Source: a virus (taxonomy: Duplodnaviria; Heunggongvirae; Uroviricota; Caudoviricetes). Taken from it: 64,000 nucleotides of DNA. The stretch is taken from positions 1 to 64,000 of IMG/VR virus record IMGVR_UViG_2718218131_000011. One strand, given 5' to 3'. A program made the position numbers and the translations under genes. Below the pieces are notes generated by a model that was not told where the DNA came from, did no database searches, and worked only from the letters and a program-made list of their open reading frames with translations. This document shows positions 1,693-36,145 of the stretch, in pieces. The stretch's first letter is position 1. Each line of letters begins with the position of its first letter.

Positions 1693-2253
1693 ATGACTGG
1701 ACAGCGCATTGGGTATATCAGGGTCAGCACCTTCGACCAGAACCCGGAACGGCAACTGGAAGGCGTCAAGGTTGATCGCGCTTTTAGCGACAAGGCATCC
1801 GGCAAGGATGTCAAGCGTCCGCAACTGGAAGCGCTGATAAGCTTCGCCCGCACCGGCGACACCGTGGTGGTGCATAGCATGGATCGCCTGGCGCGCAATC
1901 TCGATGATTTGCGCCGGATCGTGCAAACGCTGACACAACGCGGCGTGCATATCGAATTCGTCAAGGAACACCTCAGTTTTACTGGCGAAGACTCTCCGAT
2001 GGCGAACCTGATGCTCTCGGTGATGGGCGCGTTCGCCGAGTTCGAGCGCGCCCTGATCCGCGAGCGTCAGCGCGAGGGTATTGCGCTCGCCAAGCAACGC
2101 GGGGCTTACCGTGGCAGGAAGAAATCCCTGTCGTCTGAGCGTATTGCCGAACTGCGCCAACGTGTCGAGGCTGGCGAGCAAAAGACCAAGCTTGCTCGTG
2201 AATTCGGAATCAGTCGCGAAACCCTGTATCAATACTTGAGAACGGATCAGTAA
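1693..2253 (+). CDS. tnpR: Serine resolvase TnpR
   Basis: 186 aa, N-terminal [11 protein letters not shown] catalytic serine motif and C-terminal HTH; Tn21 TnpR-like. Confidence 0.95.
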
Positions 2254-28783: not shown

Positions 28784-29204
28784 CCTGTGCGAGATTTATT
28801 ACGTAACTTCTGCGGATTTGCTGAGTAACAGGGAAAATCCGATACAACGGGTTAATGAACGAGTCACCATGCGTAACCATGACGTTGAAATGCCACAGCC
28901 GTTCTCCTTTACCCATATATTCAGTGGGTATGTACAACCATTCACTGTTTTCGCCCTGTTCAGCCGACGTCAGACAACGTTGTTCGCCTTCAATCACTGT
29001 CGTTGGCTTCTGAACATCGCGGATCCAATATCTGACCGTTGCGCCGCGCAAAAACGGGAATTTAGACCGGTATTTGAACGGCACCCGGATGAAGCCCTGT
29101 TTAATTTCCACATCACCAAGTTCTAAATGCGTGATGTCCTTGCGTTTTAGCAAATAGCGATCGGCTAAGGCTAACGCAAGAACGCATACACCCCAGCCAA
29201 TCAT
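28761..29204 (-). CDS. LydB-like antiholin
   Basis: 147-aa ORF directly downstream of the holin-like gene. Confidence 0.5.
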   Translation of the reverse strand: MIGWGVCVLALALADRYLLKRKDITHLELGDVEIKQGFIRVPFKYRSKFPFLRGATVRYWIRDVQKPTTVIEGEQRCLTSAEQGENSEWLYIPTEYMGKGERLWHFNVMVTHGDSFINPLYRIFPVTQQIRRSYVINLAQDVSDDEK

Positions 29205-29530
29205 TTCCCACCTCCCTTTTTCACCAAACTTGTAAGAACATTCAGAATGCTATCGATATTCACTCGTTTCATCCCTGAAATCACCTCATGACCGTTATTG
29301 CTGGCTATCGTTACCATTAAGTACGTAATTGATAACTCCCAGCCCTCGTGTTGCCCCAATAGGTACGCCACCGCGCCAGCTGTCACTGCAACAAAGATCT
29401 CCGTAACCAATCCCAACAAATTGCCAGACTGGCGACCATCTCGGACATCCATCAGGAACGTGCCTATCCCACCAATTACTGAAAGCAGGAGCGCAATAGC
29501 AACTGGAGCTAATTCCTGTGTGTCAAGCAC
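29201..29530 (-). CDS. LydA-like holin
   Basis: 109 aa with hydrophobic helices (APVAIALLLSVIGGIGTFL, IFVAVTAGAVAYLL) and a charged C-terminus. Confidence 0.6.
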   Translation of the reverse strand: MLDTQELAPVAIALLLSVIGGIGTFLMDVRDGRQSGNLLGLVTEIFVAVTAGAVAYLLGQHEGWELSITYLMVTIASNNGHEVISGMKRVNIDSILNVLTSLVKKGGGK

Positions 29531-29599
29531 AAGTTCCCTCCTACGTTGTCAGGAGGTAATGGTATGCAAAGTAACTTCTCAACCGGTCATGTTGCTTGA

Positions 29600-29631
29600 C
29601 ATCCTCCACGTCCTTTAGAGCGTGGAGGATG
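29600..29631. repeat. Perfect 11-bp inverted repeat hairpin immediately before the intron-like segment
   Basis: CATCCTCCACG-10 nt-CGTGGAGGATG seen directly in the sequence. Confidence 0.7.
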
Positions 29632-29632
29632 T

Positions 29633-30430
29633 GTGCGCCCAGCATGGGCGCGATCTTGGAGGTGAAAGCCCTCCCGCGAGCTGACCACAGCGAGCGAAAT
29701 GAAGTGCAACTGCGTGAGGGCGACCGGGCGTGGGGAGGAAGCACGGAATGAACCCGTGAGCCGATGAACGAGAATCGGATATGAGGCGCGATGGAGCAAG
29801 GCGAGCAGGCACATCACTGCGAAGCTTTCGTGGTCAAGTCGAAGTCGCGCAGATCCGACGGTTGTGCGGGGAAGGATCGCGTTCTTACCTGGGGAGTTCT
29901 CGCCTCATGCCTGAAAGGGCAACGTCGTAAGACGGAGCGAGAAGTCAGCAGAGGCCGTAGTAGTCAGGACTCCGACGAAGGGCCGAACGAGAAGGAAAGC
30001 CAGAAGATATGACTCTTGACAGGACATTGCGTCAGAAGCCGGGGAAGCCCGGTACGGACCCGCATGCCGGGTGGTGTGGCAGGGGCGCAGCCCTTGTGCT
30101 CCCCCCTATGCCGATCAAGCAGAACATTGTGCTGGGCCTCTGACGCAGCTCCTTGATGGTCTTGGCATCGTGCTTAAGTGGATTGGTGTCGTCCCTGATA
30201 GGATCATGGAGGCAGAATGAAACTCAAAAATCCGGGATAGCACGCAAAACAGGCTGCACAAAAAGCGCAGGTTGCGTAGGAGTGAAATCCCGCTCCCAAA
30301 AAATGGTGCAGAAGTTGCGGCAGTGGTCATCCGACGCACTGGAAAATAACAAACCCGCCGTGACCAGAATCGGAGGCCTGAGGGAGTGACCGAAAAACCG
30401 GACAACCCAGGCAGCAAATACCCGCTGGAT
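29633..30430 (+). mobile_element. 5' fragment of a group II intron, no intact reverse transcriptase
   Basis: Begins GTGCGCCCAG (GUGYG boundary); purine-rich, GC-rich, no long ORF; motifs AGCACGG, CGATGA, AATCGGATATGAGG and CGTAGTAGTC resemble domain I-III strings of bacterial introns such as Ll.LtrB (recalled); short ORF at 30153-30389 may be a degenerate maturase start. Confidence 0.5.
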
Positions 30431-30535
30431 GAGGCATGGTTCCGGCAGATAATACCGAAAACCGCCAGACACACTGGATAATCAGTAGAAATAATCCATT
30501 AAAGTTATTATAATAATTGGTCACATTATTATATT

Positions 30536-31099
30536 ATGCTGAACAATAGAAATATGACTATTAATGAACTTAAAGACTGTATTCACTATGAAGTAATTGG
30601 TAGCGAGCGTCCTTTCTCTTGGCGAAAAGCAATTGTTCGCGCAATAAAACATAGAAGAGTTCGTTATTTATTTTGGTGGCGCATATCAAAATATCTTTTT
30701 GATAAAGGCGGATACAGGCGAAAGGTTGCAGGGAAAATAGAACGCTTCATTCTTGACAAATACAATGTAACCGTTCCCTTAACGGTAAATATAGGGAAAG
30801 GGTTTGACATATCTTATCTCAATGGCGTTGTTATCGCTCACAAAGTCACAATCGGTGAAAATTGTTCAATTAAGCCCGGAGTAACTATTGGACTTCGCGG
30901 GGAATTTAATGACATGGATATTGTTATAGGAGATAATGTGACCATTGGTTGTAATGCCACCATTCTTGGTGGCAAAGTGCGTATAGGAAACAATGTCACA
31001 ATAGGTGCTCATGCATTGGTATTGCATGATATTCCTGATGATTCAACATTCATCACTAAATTTCAGTCTGAAGTTATCTGCTCGTCCTCCCGCACATAA
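30536..31099 (+). CDS. Hexapeptide-repeat (left-handed beta-helix) acetyltransferase, WcaB/CysE-like
   Basis: 187 aa with tandem hexapeptide repeats [19 protein letters not shown]...[34 protein letters not shown]; AT-rich; own AT-rich upstream region. Confidence 0.8.
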
Positions 31100-31680
31100 C
31101 CCTGATTCATCAGCTCTGGCCATACGATATCCGGAGCTGTACTGGTATCAATTCGACTCACTAATACTCTGTATTTTCTCCAGGAGTCCAGTTGTGAATT
31201 TTCCTCGTTTGTTGCTATTTCAAGATTAACTGCGTCCTGCAGAATTGCGATGTTATCTGTTGCCTCCTGGATCAACCTTGCCTTTTTCTCTTCCGCTTCC
31301 CGTATCCGAAACAGTTTTTCTGCTTCCTCATCCTTCACCCAGGATACGCCGTCCCACTTCTGATACTCCCCTGCTGGCGACAACCAGGTGACATTCTCTG
31401 GTAGCGGTCCGGGTTCAGAAATAAACAACGCGTCCCCCGATGCCACCTCATAGACCGTTTTACCACGATGGTCTTCAACAATATTCCACGATTCATTTTC
31501 ACTGTTGAAAACTGCCACAAAGCCAGTAGGAATTTCCGGTGGGGCGATATCTGTAGAATTAGCTGGCAGCCCTGTATGAGGTGGAATATATGCGTCATCT
31601 TCACCAATAAACTCATTAGTTCCGGCCAGCAGGTTATAAATTTTTACTGTACGTGATTGTTCACTCATTCTGAATGCCAT
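31063..31680 (-). CDS. Tail fibre assembly chaperone (U/Tfa family)
   Basis: 205-aa ORF immediately downstream of the tail fibre gene. Confidence 0.7.
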
Positions 31681-34600
31681 TATGCAAGCCTCACAATATA
31701 ATTAAATGCGATGTTTTTAACGGTGTTTTCCGCGTTACCAGCAGCATTAACGGTGATGGTATGTCCATGTGAACCAATCGCAACAGAGTGCGTATGAGCG
31801 CCAATACCAACTGTATGTGCATGCGCCCCTGCACTTGCAGCAGTGCCTGATACTGAGTGGGTGTGTGCACCAGAAGAAGGCACTGTTCCATTCCCCACGA
31901 CCGTGCCACTTGATGAACCATCAAGCCAGTCGAAATTCATACCTCCACTGTTTGGTCTCCTTAATGGAACGGTATGAGTATGTGCGCCAGCACTATTTGC
32001 AGTACCAGATACATTGTGGGTATGTGCACCTGTGTTATTCGTTGGTTTAGTACCGTAATCAAACGACGATGTGGTTTTCGTCCCCAAATCCGTACTGGAT
32101 GCGCTGGCGCTGTGGGTGTGCGATTTAATGCCGTCCTGTTCCTGAGACAATACGGCACGACCACTGGCAGGTTTGCCCTTAATCGTCCAGCCACGCATAT
32201 CAGGGATCACGCCTGACGGATAAGCGGCTGCAAGTTTCGGGTAAGCAGATTTGTCAAAAGTCTGCCCCTGCATTAGGGCATAACCAGACGGAACGGTATC
32301 TGATGGCCACGGGATTGGTGCGCCGACTGGGTAGCTTTCTGGTGGAAGATTTTTCGAGGTATAAACTTCTGCCCAGTCTTCTTCAAAACCATAACCGTCT
32401 CTTGAAGAACGGTAGAACAGACCACCATTTCTGTAATGCGCCTTCATCTGCAATGTCCGGCAACTTCCGACTCCGGTATAGAAGTTAACCAGAATATAGC
32501 TGTCGCCAGAGCGGGTGACATTGTAAGCGCCTGATTCGGCATTCCAGGGAACGCCACCATCCGCATCGGCATATGTATCCGTTGCCCTTCTGGCAAAAGC
32601 AGCCACATGCGCGGCGGTTAAAGTGATATCAGTAGAACCATCAAATGGAACACCGGATATTTTTCTTGCAGTCTGAAGTTTTGTAGCAGTTGCAGCATTA
32701 CCGTTCAAACTACCATTGATGCCGCCAGTAACATTGAGTCCATTACCGATCGTAACAGCACCATTGGCATTGTTAATGATAAGCGGCCTTAACCTATTAT
32801 AGGTTCCTAGGCTGTTACCCGAATCGGTCAACATGAAATATGTGTTTGAACCATCGTTTCGGATAAAGAATCCGTAGTTTCCGTAGGCAATGCGCAGACC
32901 ATTCGCCGATTTGGAAATAATCTCGCCAGCAGCAGTTAATCCGCCAGTTAACGCTCCTCCAGATAGTGGTAAAGCTCCGACATCAGCCGCAGTAGGCTTG
33001 TTTTTAGTGTTATACGCTCTGCGCCATCCTGGTGAATAGCTCGTCCCGTTAAACACATAGACAAACTCCGCATTAGTGAGTGCGCCAGAGACACCTGTCG
33101 TTGTTGCCGTTGTTATACGAATCGTATAATTGTTTGAGCTACTGCCGTTATTAAATACCTCAATAACTGCGCCAGCCAGTGGAATAATGCCGCATCCTGT
33201 TTCGCTGTCTGGTATGGATGCACTATTTGCATACGCCCAGGCACAACGCGCTATCCATGCCTTTGCATTAAAAGCACCATTATCTCGTAGCAGAGTCACT
33301 AATTGCTCTGTTGTTATTGAAGCTCCATTATCACCTGTTACAAGCCAACCAGTAGGAGATGCCGGGCAACCAATATTTGCTGGTGACAGTGAAATATTCG
33401 CAGAACCGTCAAATGAAACCCCATTAATGGTACGCGCTGTTAGCAATTTGGTAGCCGTAGCTGCATTACCGGTTGTGTTCTGGTTACCAGCAATGTTTAC
33501 ACCCGGCAGATTGATATTGGCGGAGCCATCGAATGATACGCCGCCTATTGTGCGTGCTGTTTGCAGTTTTGTTGCAGTTGCAGCATTGCCAGTAGTGCTC
33601 TGATTACCTGTTTTATTCACACCTGGCAGGTCGATGTTTGCGGTACCATTAAATGAAACGCCACCAATGGTTCTTGCCGTTTGTAATTTCGTGGCAGACG
33701 CCGCATTTCCTGTTGTGTTCTGGTTGCCCGTTGTATTTACGCCCGGTATGGAGTCTTTCGATGTATAGACCTGTGCCCACTCAGACCATGCCGCATCTGT
33801 GTTATCTCTTCGGGAGCGAATGAAAACTGGCGCATGTGCACCGCTCGTACCACTCCAGCCAATAAGCAACTCGCCCTCACCAGCAGCACTCGCACCTTTC
33901 ATGTGCAATACGTTGCCATACGTGGTCGGGTAGCTATTGTTGTACGCCTCGTACATTTGAATGCCAGCAGTGCCTTGAGTAGAGCCGCTTAACGCCGTAA
34001 CTCGGCCACGAGATACCAATGTATTAATGTTGATATCGCCTGAGCCATCAAACTTAACACCGTTGATGTTTCTTGCCGTCGCAAGTTTTGTCGCGGTAGC
34101 AGCATTCCCCGTGGTGTTCTGGTTACCTGTTGTATTTACACCTGGAAGATTGATATTGGCCGAGCCATCAAATGCCACACCGCCAATCGTGCGTGCTGTT
34201 TTCAATTTCGTCGCGGTGTCGGCGTTCCCTGTCAGCGCCCCGGTGATCCCGCCGTTGAAAGTCTGGCGCGCACTCCATGTGTTAGCCGTGCTCAACAGGG
34301 GGATCTTTTCACCGCTGGTACCGAGTTCTCTTAAACCAAGGTATTGGATAACGGCCAGTGTGCTTGTTTTAGCCAGAATATCGCGACCGACTGACGTTAA
34401 ATCAGTCTGCGCTACCGTATCCTTACCAGTGAAATAAGGCAGTTTGTTTGCACCAGTCGCAAGGGCAGCGAGCGCGGTTAAAGTTGCATCCAGAGGCTGT
34501 TTGCCTGCCAGCGCATTTGTCATTGTTGTCGCAAAGTTCGGGTCATTGCCCAGTGCTGCTGCAAGCTCATTCAGAGTATCAAGAGCTTCAGGTGATGAGC

Positions 34601-35699
34601 CGACCAATGCAGAGATAGCAGCTCTTACATAAGCGGTCGTAGCAATCTGCGTGTTATTCGTACCCTGTGCAGCGGTAGGCGCAGTAGGTATTCCCGTTAA
34701 TGCAGGACTTGCTAAAGGAGCTTTAAGAGCCAGAGCATTGTTGATAGTTGTGCTGAAATTCGGGTCGTTATTGATCGCAGCAGCTATTTCTTTAAGCGTA
34801 TCCAGTGTGCCAGGTGCACCGTTGATAAGTGCCGTTATAGCTGCCTTAACAAAGGCTGTATTTGCGATCTGCGTGCTGTTTGTACCTTGCGCTGCCGTCG
34901 GCGCGGTTGGCGTTCCTGTCAGACTCGGGCTTTCTATTGGCGCTTTGGTATCAGCCAGCTCTTTTACAGACTTAACGGCTTTAGGGGTAGCCGCCATTGT
35001 TTCGCTGTCGCTGTTAGTTGCGCTACTGAGCTGAACTAATCCCTTTTGTGTTGTGCTTGCATCCTGCGCCGTATACTTGCTTTTAGCCAGATCGTAGGCT
35101 TTTTTAACTGCCAGCGAACTCGCAGCAACATCACTTCTGGTACTGGTTACAGAGTCTGAAATATCAATGCCGATCGTGCGGTTGATACGCTTGGATGTAT
35201 CAATCATCTCCTGGGTAATGGCAGATACACCAGCAGGGATATTCACCGTACAAACAAGCAGCTCCCCATCTCCTAACTGATATGAATCGGTATAGGTTCT
35301 GGAAACAAATTCAGCCGCATGAATATGTGACGCGGTATTCACCTGATAGGTATCTTCTCCAAGGAGGTATCTTCCCTTCAGCACAATTGCATATTTCTTG
35401 CCTGCACTAAGTGCAAGAGAAATATCCTTACGTTGCTGAATAGTTACCTGGTAGAATTCACCAATATCCACCGACGCCGCGCCTGCGGTTTTATCACCAT
35501 CCACTGAGGTGATTAACAGGTTCATCCCACCGCCAGGCTTAGGTAAGAAACCGGCATAAAATCCCGGGTCAACAATCCCCCTGAATTTTCGGTTTAGCGC
35601 GGCTGACAGATATGGTTCGTGGTATTGCACATCAGCCACCAGAGCCAACGACTCGGGTGATGGGTAAGTAACCGATGTGACAACTGTAACGTCATTCAT
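31680..35699 (-). CDS. Tail fibre protein (S-like), non-invertible
   Basis: About 1340 aa from [10 protein letters not shown]; internal phage tail-fibre repeats ([26 protein letters not shown]) and C-terminal His-rich GAHTH repeats. Confidence 0.85.
33400..34270. repeat. Imperfect tandem repeats of about 120 bp inside the tail fibre gene
   Basis: Three units at about 33400-33759 and two at about 34039-34270, visible as repeated peptides in both the sense and antisense ORF tracks. Confidence 0.6.
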
Positions 35700-35710
35700 C
35701 AAGCATATCC

Positions 35711-36145
35711 TTATGCTGTAGTCGTGTTTATGGCCATAACTGCGGTATATGTTTTGCCCACATACAGCGAGTCTTCCTGGACACAAATAATGGCGATTGG
35801 CTTGTTCTCGTTATCCAGAACAACCAGAGTGTTGAATGGGTAGTTTTTCCCTTCCTGCAACTGGCTTTGATCAAGGTCCATTCGGACAGTTATTATCCCG
35901 CCTGAGTAGGTTGGGACGAGGTTGATGGTGCAAAATTGACTGGTCAGTTCTGCCAGATCGAAAGCCTTTGGCAGTTCTCCAATCTCATAAGTGCCATCTC
36001 CTTTCTTAGTAACCAGTGAACTGGTACCGAAAACGGCCTTGCTGATTAAAAATCGAGAGCCTTTGTTAATGGACGATTCAGCGCGCCGCTGATAGTAATA
36101 GTCCAACAACTGACTCTTATAGAGGTTTGTTGAGACGTCAGACAT
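35711..36145 (-). CDS. Tail fibre structural protein (P1 R-like)
   Basis: 144-aa ORF directly upstream of the tail fibre gene on the same strand. Confidence 0.5.

What the first reader, a model, noticed from the sequence alone, without database searches (positions are those of the whole stretch)
30536..31099. Hexapeptide-repeat acetyltransferase gene convergent with the tail fibre operon
A WcaB/CysE-like left-handed beta-helix acetyltransferase in AT-rich DNA sits where P1 encodes Cin and the alternative tail fibre segments. One possibility is lysogenic conversion by acetylation of a surface polysaccharide that this phage's own fibre uses as receptor, a form of superinfection exclusion.
Basis: partly seen in the sequence, partly recalled or inferred. 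Interest (0 to 1): 0.5.

Follow-up and report, generated by a model that had tools for sequence, protein, structure and literature searches.

The report
Tail-fibre-linked acetyltransferase-like prophage cargo gene
A real, well-conserved cargo gene of unknown function sits back-to-back with the tail-fibre genes of this P1-like phage-plasmid; it looks like a sugar-modifying acetyltransferase, is not a cysteine-pathway enzyme, and has swapped the usual catalytic histidine for a tyrosine.

Summary
ORF 30536-31099 (+), probably starting at 30554 (181 aa), is a hexapeptide-repeat protein in 38% GC DNA. It lies where P1 has lydC, cin and the invertible fibre segment, and is convergent with the fibre assembly gene, overlapping it by 37 bp.

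It belongs to phage family phrog_2154 (function unknown). Databases call it "serine acetyltransferase", but it fails every equivalog cut-off (CysE, WcaB, EpsC, Vat). All six serine acetyltransferase (SAT) catalytic or serine-binding residues differ.

- **Active site:** the catalytic His, present in 238 of 261 homologues, is an invariant Tyr in this clade. The clade is still under strong purifying selection (dN/dS 0.05-0.12).
- **Linkage:** promoter, gene, assembly gene and fibre tip move as one block between P1-like, P2-like and lambdoid prophages. Relatives down to 34% identity hold the same convergent position.
- **Origin:** a tape-measure pseudogene and an ORF-less group II intron upstream suggest import from a P2-like prophage.

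Best reading: a lysogen-expressed acyltransferase that modifies a conserved envelope glycan, possibly LPS core, for receptor masking or lysogenic conversion. This is inferred, not shown. The remodelled active site leaves open a changed chemistry or a non-catalytic role. Two papers mention the gene family; neither characterises it. Interest is moderate.

The parts
30486..30514 (+). Predicted sigma-70 promoter of the cargo gene (TAGAAA, 17 nt, TATAAT)
   Evidence: It matches 10 of 12 consensus positions. Both hexamers are conserved in the P2-like and lambdoid copies, whose homology to the window begins at 30466 and 30479. This is a prediction only.
30536..31099 (+). SAT-like hexapeptide-repeat (left-handed beta-helix) protein gene, phrog_2154. 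The likely true start is 30554 (181 aa). Tyr94 replaces the family's catalytic His, and Asp128 aligns with CysE His193 (numbering of the 187-aa ORF).
31063..31680 (-). Tail fibre assembly gene (tfa, U-like), convergent with the cargo gene and overlapping its 3' end by 37 bp
   Evidence: Pfam Caudo_TAP E 2.8e-39; phrog_105 E 1e-92. It is co-inherited with the cargo gene.
31680..35699 (-). Chimeric tail fibre gene S. The N-terminal part is P1 Sc (34195 onward, 96%). The C-terminal tip (31680-32315) is shared at 93.6% with a P2-like prophage and at 86% with a lambdoid prophage.
   Evidence: The ATG at 35699 is inferred from the 'MNDVTVV' start inside the longer TTG-initiated ORF.
30176..30478 (+). 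Pseudogene remnant of a P2-type tail tape-measure gene, a relic of the donor prophage. DNA homology spans 30120-30468.
   Evidence: 75% DNA identity to the tape-measure gene of a P2-like prophage. tblastn E 4e-9, with in-frame stops.
29600..30118 (+). An 11-bp hairpin (29600-29631) followed by an ORF-less group II intron (GTGCG at 29633, running to about 30118). This is part of the DNA that replaced lydC-cin; no role in the cargo gene's function is shown.
   Evidence: Rfam group-II-D1D4-3 at 96.9 bits and D1D4-1 at 46.8 bits. A weak RF00029 hit covers 30043-30115. The 5' and 3' parts are 96% and 94% identical to the two ends of an intron that carries ltrA.
29201..29530 (-). lydA holin gene, the last P1-backbone gene before the replaced segment (P1 homology ends at 29597)

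Best explanation
This is a self-contained prophage cargo unit: its own promoter plus one gene. It encodes a cytoplasmic, probably trimeric, left-handed beta-helix acyltransferase of the short SAT/WcaB-like type.

It is probably transcribed in the lysogen against the direction of the late tail-fibre operon. It probably transfers an acetyl or other short acyl group from acyl-CoA to a conserved envelope glycan precursor at the inner face of the membrane. LPS core is the favoured candidate; ECA or colanic acid units are alternatives.

The altered surface would then mask the receptor used by fibres of the linked type, giving exclusion or reduced re-adsorption, or would otherwise convert the surface. 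Because the gene is welded to tfa and the fibre tip, fibre specificity and modifier are exchanged together between P1-like, P2-like and lambdoid phages.

**Shown:** gene reality, fold, subfamily, non-SAT status, linkage and synteny, purifying selection, and the His-to-Tyr change.

**Inferred:** expression in the lysogen, the acyl donor, the acceptor, and the phenotype. In this clade the chemistry would have to run on a remodelled active site. One inferred possibility is Tyr94 acting with Asp128 of the neighbouring subunit in place of the His/Asp pair.
For: **Fold and subfamily**
- Hexapep E 5e-14.
- AlphaFold2 pLDDT 92, with four N-terminal helices followed by a beta-helix.
- The best Foldseek hits are all serine acetyltransferases, TM about 0.7.
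- The family profile hits SATs at E 2e-35 and LacA at 5e-19.

**Not a metabolic SAT**
- It falls below every equivalog cut-off.
- The SAT substrate and catalytic residues are all replaced.

**Functional protein**
- dN/dS is 0.05-0.12 within the Tyr clade.
- Tyr is invariant across 17 sequences of 52-100% identity.
- The other clade-specific conserved residues include D128, which aligns with the second active-site His of SAT.

**Autonomous unit**
- The conserved promoter lies inside the shared block, which starts at 30466 or 30479.
- Low GC fits imported cargo DNA.

**Linkage to the receptor-binding apparatus**
- The block 30466-32315 is 93.6% identical to a P2-like prophage. The block 30479-32711 is 86% identical to the lambdoid prophage of ETEC H10407.
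- Among IMG/VR phage contigs, 39 of the 40 Tyr-type loci or near-identical fragments have tfa directly convergent.
- Of the 40 His-type loci (34-53% identity), 17 have a tfa-like ORF detected downstream, 15 of them directly adjacent. Five more have a divergent tfa or a fibre gene next door on inspection.
- The same slot is used in P2-like prophages, Hafnia phage yong2, Citrobacter phiNP, an Enterobacter prophage and a second P1-like lineage that carries a 37% identical allele.

**Precedents and hints**
- An unrelated membrane acyltransferase, NeaT, occupies the same P2 cargo slot between G and FI, in the opposite orientation and in low-GC DNA (PMC3573123).
- Prophage acetyltransferases that modify capsule are documented.
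- A 34% identical homologue lies inside a Pseudomonas luteola cluster of glycosyltransferase, capsule-synthesis and O-antigen-ligase-family (Wzy_C) genes next to an msbA-like ABC transporter, which I read as an LPS core cluster.
Against: - The catalytic His is invariant in 238 of 261 homologues and is the general base in SAT (PMC8786284). Here it is Tyr. Its Asp/Glu partner is Thr, Lys or Val in this clade. O-acetyl transfer by the standard mechanism is therefore not expected.
- No acceptor, donor or phenotype has been measured for any member. The papers I found list the family only as cargo of unknown or 'fitness' function.
- The position downstream of tfa is also a general permissive insertion site at the end of a late operon, so synteny may reflect insertion tolerance and hitch-hiking rather than function.
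- Roughly half of the more distant phage homologues, and several chromosomal ones, are not next to fibre genes.
- E. coli LPS core is not known to be acetylated (my own knowledge).
- No terminator or ribosome-binding site was recognised.
Confidence: 0.45

Rival explanations
1. It is a non-catalytic beta-helix protein (pseudoenzyme). Having lost the His/Asp dyad, it would act by binding. It could sequester an acyl-CoA or a sugar precursor, or form a complex with, or poison, a host trimeric beta-helix enzyme or another partner. The outcome could still be surface conversion or exclusion.
For: - Both catalytic-dyad positions are lost together in this clade only.
- Strong purifying selection and a confident fold show that the protein is used.
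Against: - Tyr94 is strictly invariant and D128 nearly so. This suggests a remodelled active site rather than a decayed one.
- The C-terminal coils keep the family's nearly invariant motifs. That these are the CoA-binding coils is my own knowledge.
- His-type and Tyr-type alleles occupy the same genomic slot, which suggests the same job.
Confidence: 0.17
2. It is a passenger in a permissive site whose role is unrelated to phage receptors. Examples would be host fitness or immune evasion through cell-wall or metabolite acylation (NeaT-like), or acylation of a small molecule. On this view the linkage to fibre genes is only physical.
For: - An unrelated acyltransferase, NeaT, in the same P2 slot affects bacteraemia fitness, with no phage phenotype reported in the passages I read.
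- Many homologues lie in non-fibre islands.
- The papers I found class it as 'fitness' cargo.
Against: - The same convergent pairing recurs across very different phage types and down to 34% identity.
- It is co-inherited with the fibre tip.
Confidence: 0.2
3. It is a serine O-acetyltransferase, an auxiliary metabolic gene that boosts cysteine synthesis, as the database name says.
For: - RefSeq and GenBank name it so.
- The closest solved structures are SATs.
- Truncated four-helix CysE isoforms exist (PMC13040420).
Against: - TIGR01172 scores 72 bits against 210.65, and PRK11132 46 against 397.
- D92, D143, D157, H158, R192 and H193 are replaced by P, T, S, Y, M and D.
- There is no C-terminal CysK-binding Ile (sequence; the CysK-binding role of that tail is my own knowledge).
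Confidence: 0.03
4. It is a xenobiotic or antibiotic acetyltransferase (Vat or CatB type), or an anti-phage defence or anti-defence protein.
For: - P1-like plasmids often carry resistance genes.
- Weak Vat hits at E about 1e-5.
Against: - Vat models score 22-25 bits against cut-offs of 300-475.
- No PADLOC family matches.
- The SAT-type N-terminal helices are unlike those of the XAT class.
Confidence: 0.05

Closest known systems
WcaB / EpsC-type short SAT-like polysaccharide O-acetyltransferases
   Same: - The architecture is the same: a few N-terminal helices homologous to the end of the SAT helical domain, followed by the beta-helix.
- These are the best family hits.
- They are cytoplasmic enzymes that act on lipid-linked sugar units (my own knowledge).
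   Different: - Scores are far below the equivalog cut-offs: 62 bits against 195 for WcaB, and 81 against 150 for EpsC.
- The gene is not in a polysaccharide gene cluster.
- The catalytic His is Tyr, and the acidic partner is lost.
Serine O-acetyltransferase CysE
   Same: It is the closest solved fold and sequence relative. The aligned core runs from about CysE residue 100 to 270.
   Different: - All catalytic and serine-binding residues are replaced.
- There is no CysK-binding tail.
- The gene is phage-borne, and it scores below the family cut-off.
NeaT of the CFT073 P2-like prophage (PMC3573123)
   Same: It has the same genomic slot (between fibre assembly gene G and sheath gene FI), the opposite orientation to the tail genes, low GC, and scattered distribution among unrelated phages.
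   Different: NeaT is an integral-membrane Acyl_transf_3 (PF01757) protein with an unrelated fold.
NeuO, the K1 capsule O-acetyltransferase of prophage CUS-3 (from my own knowledge)
   Same: It is a prophage-encoded cytoplasmic hexapeptide-repeat acetyltransferase, placed beside the receptor-binding protein gene, that modifies the polysaccharide the phage recognises.
   Different: - NeuO belongs to the Maa/LacA/NodL branch. Its structure does not appear among the E<=0.001 PDB sequence matches.
- NeuO is phase-variable through 5' heptanucleotide repeats; none is present here.
Receptor-blocking genes placed next to receptor-binding genes (T5 llp beside pb5; cor in phi80/N15; gtrABC or oac beside tailspikes) (from my own knowledge)
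   Same: The genomic logic is the same: a lysogen-expressed or early-expressed gene beside the receptor-binding module that makes the cell refractory to phages using that receptor.
   Different: The proteins and mechanisms are different. For the gene here, the exclusion phenotype is only hypothesised.

Membership tests
Hexapeptide-repeat (left-handed beta-helix) acyltransferase superfamily | Hexapeptide repeats that score above the Pfam threshold | tested here: met
   PF00132 at 51.7 bits against a cut-off of 27, E 5e-14.
Hexapeptide-repeat (left-handed beta-helix) acyltransferase superfamily | Left-handed beta-helix fold | tested here: met
   The AlphaFold2 model has pLDDT 92, with short strands from residue 77 to about 170. 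Foldseek probability is 1.00 to many SAT structures.
Hexapeptide-repeat (left-handed beta-helix) acyltransferase superfamily | Conserved active-site histidine acting as general base (PMC8786284) | tested here: not met
   Tyr94 occupies the position that holds His in 238 of 261 homologues, in CysE (H158) and in WcaB.
Serine O-acetyltransferase (CysE, TIGR01172) | Score above the equivalog cut-off | tested here: not met
   72.1 bits against 210.65; PRK11132 46.1 against 397.
Serine O-acetyltransferase (CysE, TIGR01172) | Catalytic His158 and Asp143, plus serine-binding Asp92, Asp157, Arg192 and His193 | tested here: not met
   The aligned residues are Y94, T79, P26, S93, M127 and D128.
Serine O-acetyltransferase (CysE, TIGR01172) | C-terminal tail ending in Ile that binds CysK | tested here: not met
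   The protein ends ...ICSSSRT. C-termini are not conserved among homologues.
Colanic acid acetyltransferase WcaB (TIGR04016) | Equivalog score, and location in the wca cluster | tested here: not met
   62.4 bits against 194.65. The neighbours are phage lysis and tail-fibre genes.
Xenobiotic acetyltransferases (Vat / CatB) | Score above the family cut-off | tested here: not met
   22-25 bits against cut-offs of 300-475.
phrog_2154 (phage protein family, unknown function) | Full-length profile match | tested here: met
   E 7.5e-78, residues 5-186 aligned to profile positions 2-184 of 185.
Receptor-modifying lysogenic-conversion / superinfection-exclusion genes | Located beside the receptor-binding module and inherited with it | tested here: met
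Receptor-modifying lysogenic-conversion / superinfection-exclusion genes | Expressed in the lysogen from its own promoter | tested here: inconclusive
   A conserved promoter-like site lies at 30486-30514. No expression data are available.
Receptor-modifying lysogenic-conversion / superinfection-exclusion genes | Chemically alters the receptor and lowers adsorption | not testable with these tools
   This needs LPS or glycan analysis and adsorption assays.
NeuO-type phase-variable capsule O-acetyltransferase | 5' short tandem repeats that give phase variation | tested here: not met
   The only repeat in 29500-31700 is a 2-copy 10-mer inside the gene.
Known anti-phage defence systems (PADLOC) | Match to any defence protein model | tested here: not met
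   0 families at E<=0.01.

The most novel reading that the evidence does not exclude
The gene, tfa and the fibre tip form a portable 'host-range plus exclusion' cassette. A receptor-binding specificity and its matched receptor-masking enzyme are exchanged as one block among P1-, P2- and lambda-type phages. Within that cassette, this clade has evolved a hexapeptide acyltransferase that runs on a Tyr (plus Asp128) active site instead of the near-universal His. That would imply a new acceptor chemistry or a new catalytic solution for the fold.
Probability: 0.2. Interest if true: 0.65.

Novelty: new variant of a known kind. Interest (0 to 1): 0.4.

Why it matters
- **Phage biology.** If the protein masks the receptor of its linked fibre, fibre swapping between unrelated temperate phages would carry its own exclusion function. 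That bears on host-range prediction, on how P1-like resistance plasmids spread, and on the choice of phages for therapy.
- **Annotation.** The misleading name "serine acetyltransferase" is propagated across hundreds of genomes and has already prompted metabolic interpretations in print (PMC9603915). This analysis shows the name is wrong for this clade.
- **Enzymology.** The His-to-Tyr active site is a small but concrete question for the beta-helix acyltransferase fold.

Tried and rejected
- **Housekeeping or auxiliary SAT:** rejected on scores and on six substituted functional residues. I do not use the missing long N-terminal domain as an argument, because truncated CysE isoforms exist.
- **Antibiotic acetyltransferase:** rejected on scores.
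- **Defence system:** no PADLOC match.
- **NeuO-like phase variation:** no repeats.
- **Gene housed inside a group II intron (domain IV cargo):** rejected. The intron's own 3' end lies at about 30118, upstream of a tape-measure pseudogene and of the gene.
- **Rfam IS009 hit at 31139-31337:** it scores below the gathering threshold and lies inside tfa. I take it, without a test, to be coding-sequence homology.
- **Literature:** seven searches found no functional study. The gene family is mentioned only as unexplained cargo.
- **Not possible here:** the afdb50 fold library was unavailable.
- **My crude tfa profile missed divergent assembly genes.** Inspecting the misses by eye recovered some, so the His-type synteny count is a lower bound.

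Full report
**1. What is at the coordinates**

ORF 30536-31099 (+) encodes 187 aa. It matches Pfam Hexapep at E 5e-14, above the threshold. Its best NCBIfam matches are EpsC, CysE and WcaB.

GC is 0.37-0.41 across the gene, against 0.49 for the window; GC3 is 0.31.

The real start is probably the ATG at 30554 (181 aa), for two reasons:
- Homologues and RefSeq annotations begin there.
- The upstream ATG is TTA in the lambdoid copy.

A promoter-like site, TAGAAA-17-TATAAT, lies at 30486-30514. It is conserved in two other phage contexts.

**2. Surroundings**

The window is a P1-like phage-plasmid. On the minus strand, upstream of the gene, lie a DarA_N-domain gene (hdf in P1), lydB and lydA. Downstream and convergent are tfa/U (31063-31680, Caudo_TAP E 3e-39), the fibre gene S and R. 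The cargo gene and tfa overlap by 37 bp at their 3' ends.

Against P1, homology stops at 29597 and resumes at 34195. lydC, cin, the cix sites and Sv'/U' are missing.

The replacement DNA is a mosaic:
- a hairpin (29600-31);
- a group II intron that has lost its reverse-transcriptase region (29633 to about 30118);
- a pseudogene fragment of a P2-type tape-measure gene (30176-30478);
- the cargo gene, tfa and the fibre tip.

From 30466 to 32315 the window is 93.6% identical to a P2-like E. coli prophage. In that prophage, tape measure and gpU precede the same gene. From 30479 to 32711 it is 86% identical to the end of a lambdoid prophage of ETEC H10407.

The simplest history is that a P1-like plasmid swapped its invertible fibre segment for a fixed fibre tip + tfa + cargo block taken from a P2-like prophage. 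Thirty-four plasmids hold the stretch 29400-31300 over at least 80% of its length, and the 25 listed hold all of it at 99.8-100% identity. The gene is in 244 of 5426 complete E. coli genomes, mostly in chromosomal prophages.

**3. What the protein is**

The AlphaFold2 model, built on 106 homologues, is confident (pLDDT 92). It shows four N-terminal helices and a beta-helix.

Foldseek's best hits are all serine acetyltransferases, with TM about 0.7. The family profile hits SATs at E 2e-35, ahead of LacA at 5e-19 and Maa at about 1e-17. Vat is only a weak hit for the single sequence. The protein therefore belongs to the SAT/WcaB branch, not to the xenobiotic or NeuO/Maa branches.

It is a full-length member of phrog_2154, which has no known function. 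It has no PADLOC match.

It is not a serine acetyltransferase:
- Every equivalog score is far below its cut-off.
- The residues aligned with CysE D92, D143, D157, H158, R192 and H193 are P, T, S, Y, M and D.
- There is no CysK-binding tail.

**4. The unexpected feature**

The catalytic histidine is the general base of SAT and a hallmark of the fold (PMC8786284). It is His in 238 of 261 aligned homologues. It is Tyr in all 17 members of the query's clade, which spans 52-100% identity.

The acidic partner is Glu or Asp in 157 of the 238 His-type relatives, and in nearly all of those closest to this clade. It is Thr, Lys or Val in this clade.

The clade is nevertheless under strong purifying selection, with dN/dS 0.05-0.12. 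It also has its own conserved residues. One of them, D128, aligns with the second active-site His of SAT.

I read this as a remodelled active site rather than a decayed one, but that is inference. A non-catalytic role is a live rival.

**5. Conserved genomic logic**

| Group | Loci (IMG/VR phage contigs) | tfa or fibre gene convergent downstream |
|---|---|---|
| Tyr-type, including two near-identical fragments where the residue is not covered | 40 | 39 directly adjacent |
| His-type (34-53% identity) | 40 | 17 with a tfa-like ORF downstream, 15 of them directly adjacent, plus 5 more found by inspection |

The same pairing is seen in:
- P2-like prophages;
- Hafnia phage yong2 and Citrobacter phiNP;
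- an Enterobacter prophage at 34% identity;
- a second P1-like lineage (JL22, Ro157c2YLVW) that carries a 37% identical His-type allele in the same slot.

Other homologues sit at prophage ends or in small islands. One sits in a Pseudomonas luteola cluster of glycosyltransferase, capsule-synthesis and O-antigen-ligase-family genes next to an msbA-like transporter, which I read as an LPS core cluster.

In P2-like phages this is the known 'moron position 2'. In CFT073 that position holds NeaT, an unrelated membrane acyltransferase (PMC3573123).

**6. Mechanism**

The best-supported reading (confidence about 0.45) has four parts:
- It is a lysogen-expressed cytoplasmic acyltransferase.
- It modifies a conserved envelope glycan precursor.
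- That masks the receptor of the linked fibre type, or otherwise converts the surface.
- It is silenced by convergent late transcription during lytic growth.

The gene occurs in strains of different serotypes (O80:H26, O121:H19). A conserved target such as LPS core is therefore more likely than a particular O-antigen or capsule.

None of the functional steps has been observed. The rivals are a pseudoenzyme, a fitness factor unrelated to phage receptors, a true SAT, and a resistance or defence gene. They are weighed in the structured fields.

**7. Novelty**

The gene family is annotated in many genomes. P1-like JL22 is described as carrying a serine acetyltransferase gene 'for reasons unknown' (PMC9603915), and phiNP lists one as 'fitness' cargo (PMC6456863). 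I found no functional study.

To my knowledge, three points are new here:
- the demonstration that the database name is wrong;
- the breadth of the tfa-linked synteny and the cassette-like co-transfer;
- the clade-specific His-to-Tyr active site.

This is a new variant of a known kind (prophage surface-modifying cargo beside receptor-binding genes). Interest is moderate, at 0.4.

Noticed in passing
window 29600-30118 (+): An ORF-less group II intron. GTGCG at 29633 is preceded directly by an 11-bp hairpin (29600-29631). Positions 29605-30052 are 96% identical to the 5' end of an E. coli intron that carries ltrA (L020 3001-3448). Positions 30047-30118 are 94% identical to its 3' end (L020 4792-4862). 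About 1.34 kb, including the reverse-transcriptase gene, has therefore been deleted. The hairpin is shared with other copies on F-type plasmids, which recalls introns that insert after terminator hairpins. Whether it can still splice was not tested.
   Followed up: partly
window 30176-30478 (+): A pseudogene fragment of a P2-type tail tape-measure protein inside a P1-like genome (tblastn E 4e-9, with in-frame stops). It is a relic pointing to a P2-like prophage as donor of the fibre-tip/tfa/cargo block.
   Followed up: yes
window 31680-35786 (-): The fibre gene S is a chimera of about 1340 aa. The P1 Sc part (34195 onward) is 96% identical to P1. The middle has partial matches to P1 repeated elements. 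The tip is shared with P2-like and lambdoid prophages. With cin and the cix sites gone, host range is fixed rather than switchable.
   Followed up: partly
window 31139-31337 (-): An Rfam IS009 match (75.9 bits, below the gathering score of 117) lies wholly inside the tfa coding sequence. It is probably coding-sequence homology rather than an sRNA; this was not checked.
   Followed up: no
window 1708-2232: A serine recombinase only 36% identical to P1 Cin. It is the only Cin-like sequence in the window and is far from the fibre genes. Its role was not examined.
   Followed up: no
L021 (phage vB_EcoM-Ro157c2YLVW) 3701-4998; also phage JL22: Another P1-like lineage carries a different, His-type allele (37% identical, 'sacF') in the same slot, next to a truncated U' remnant. 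The slot has therefore been filled at least twice independently in P1-like phages.
   Followed up: partly
L023 643-1835 (Citrobacter phiNP); L108/L109 3308-4564 (Enterobacter prophage): A hicA-hicB toxin-antitoxin pair lies immediately upstream of, and co-oriented with, the His-type allele in two different prophages.
   Followed up: no
L017 5001-5588 (Pseudomonas luteola): A 34% identical homologue overlaps the 3' end of an O-antigen-ligase-family (Wzy_C) gene. It sits among glycosyltransferase, carbamoyltransferase and capsule-synthesis genes and an msbA-like ABC transporter, which I read as the LPS core cluster. It is a candidate core O-acetyltransferase.
   Followed up: no
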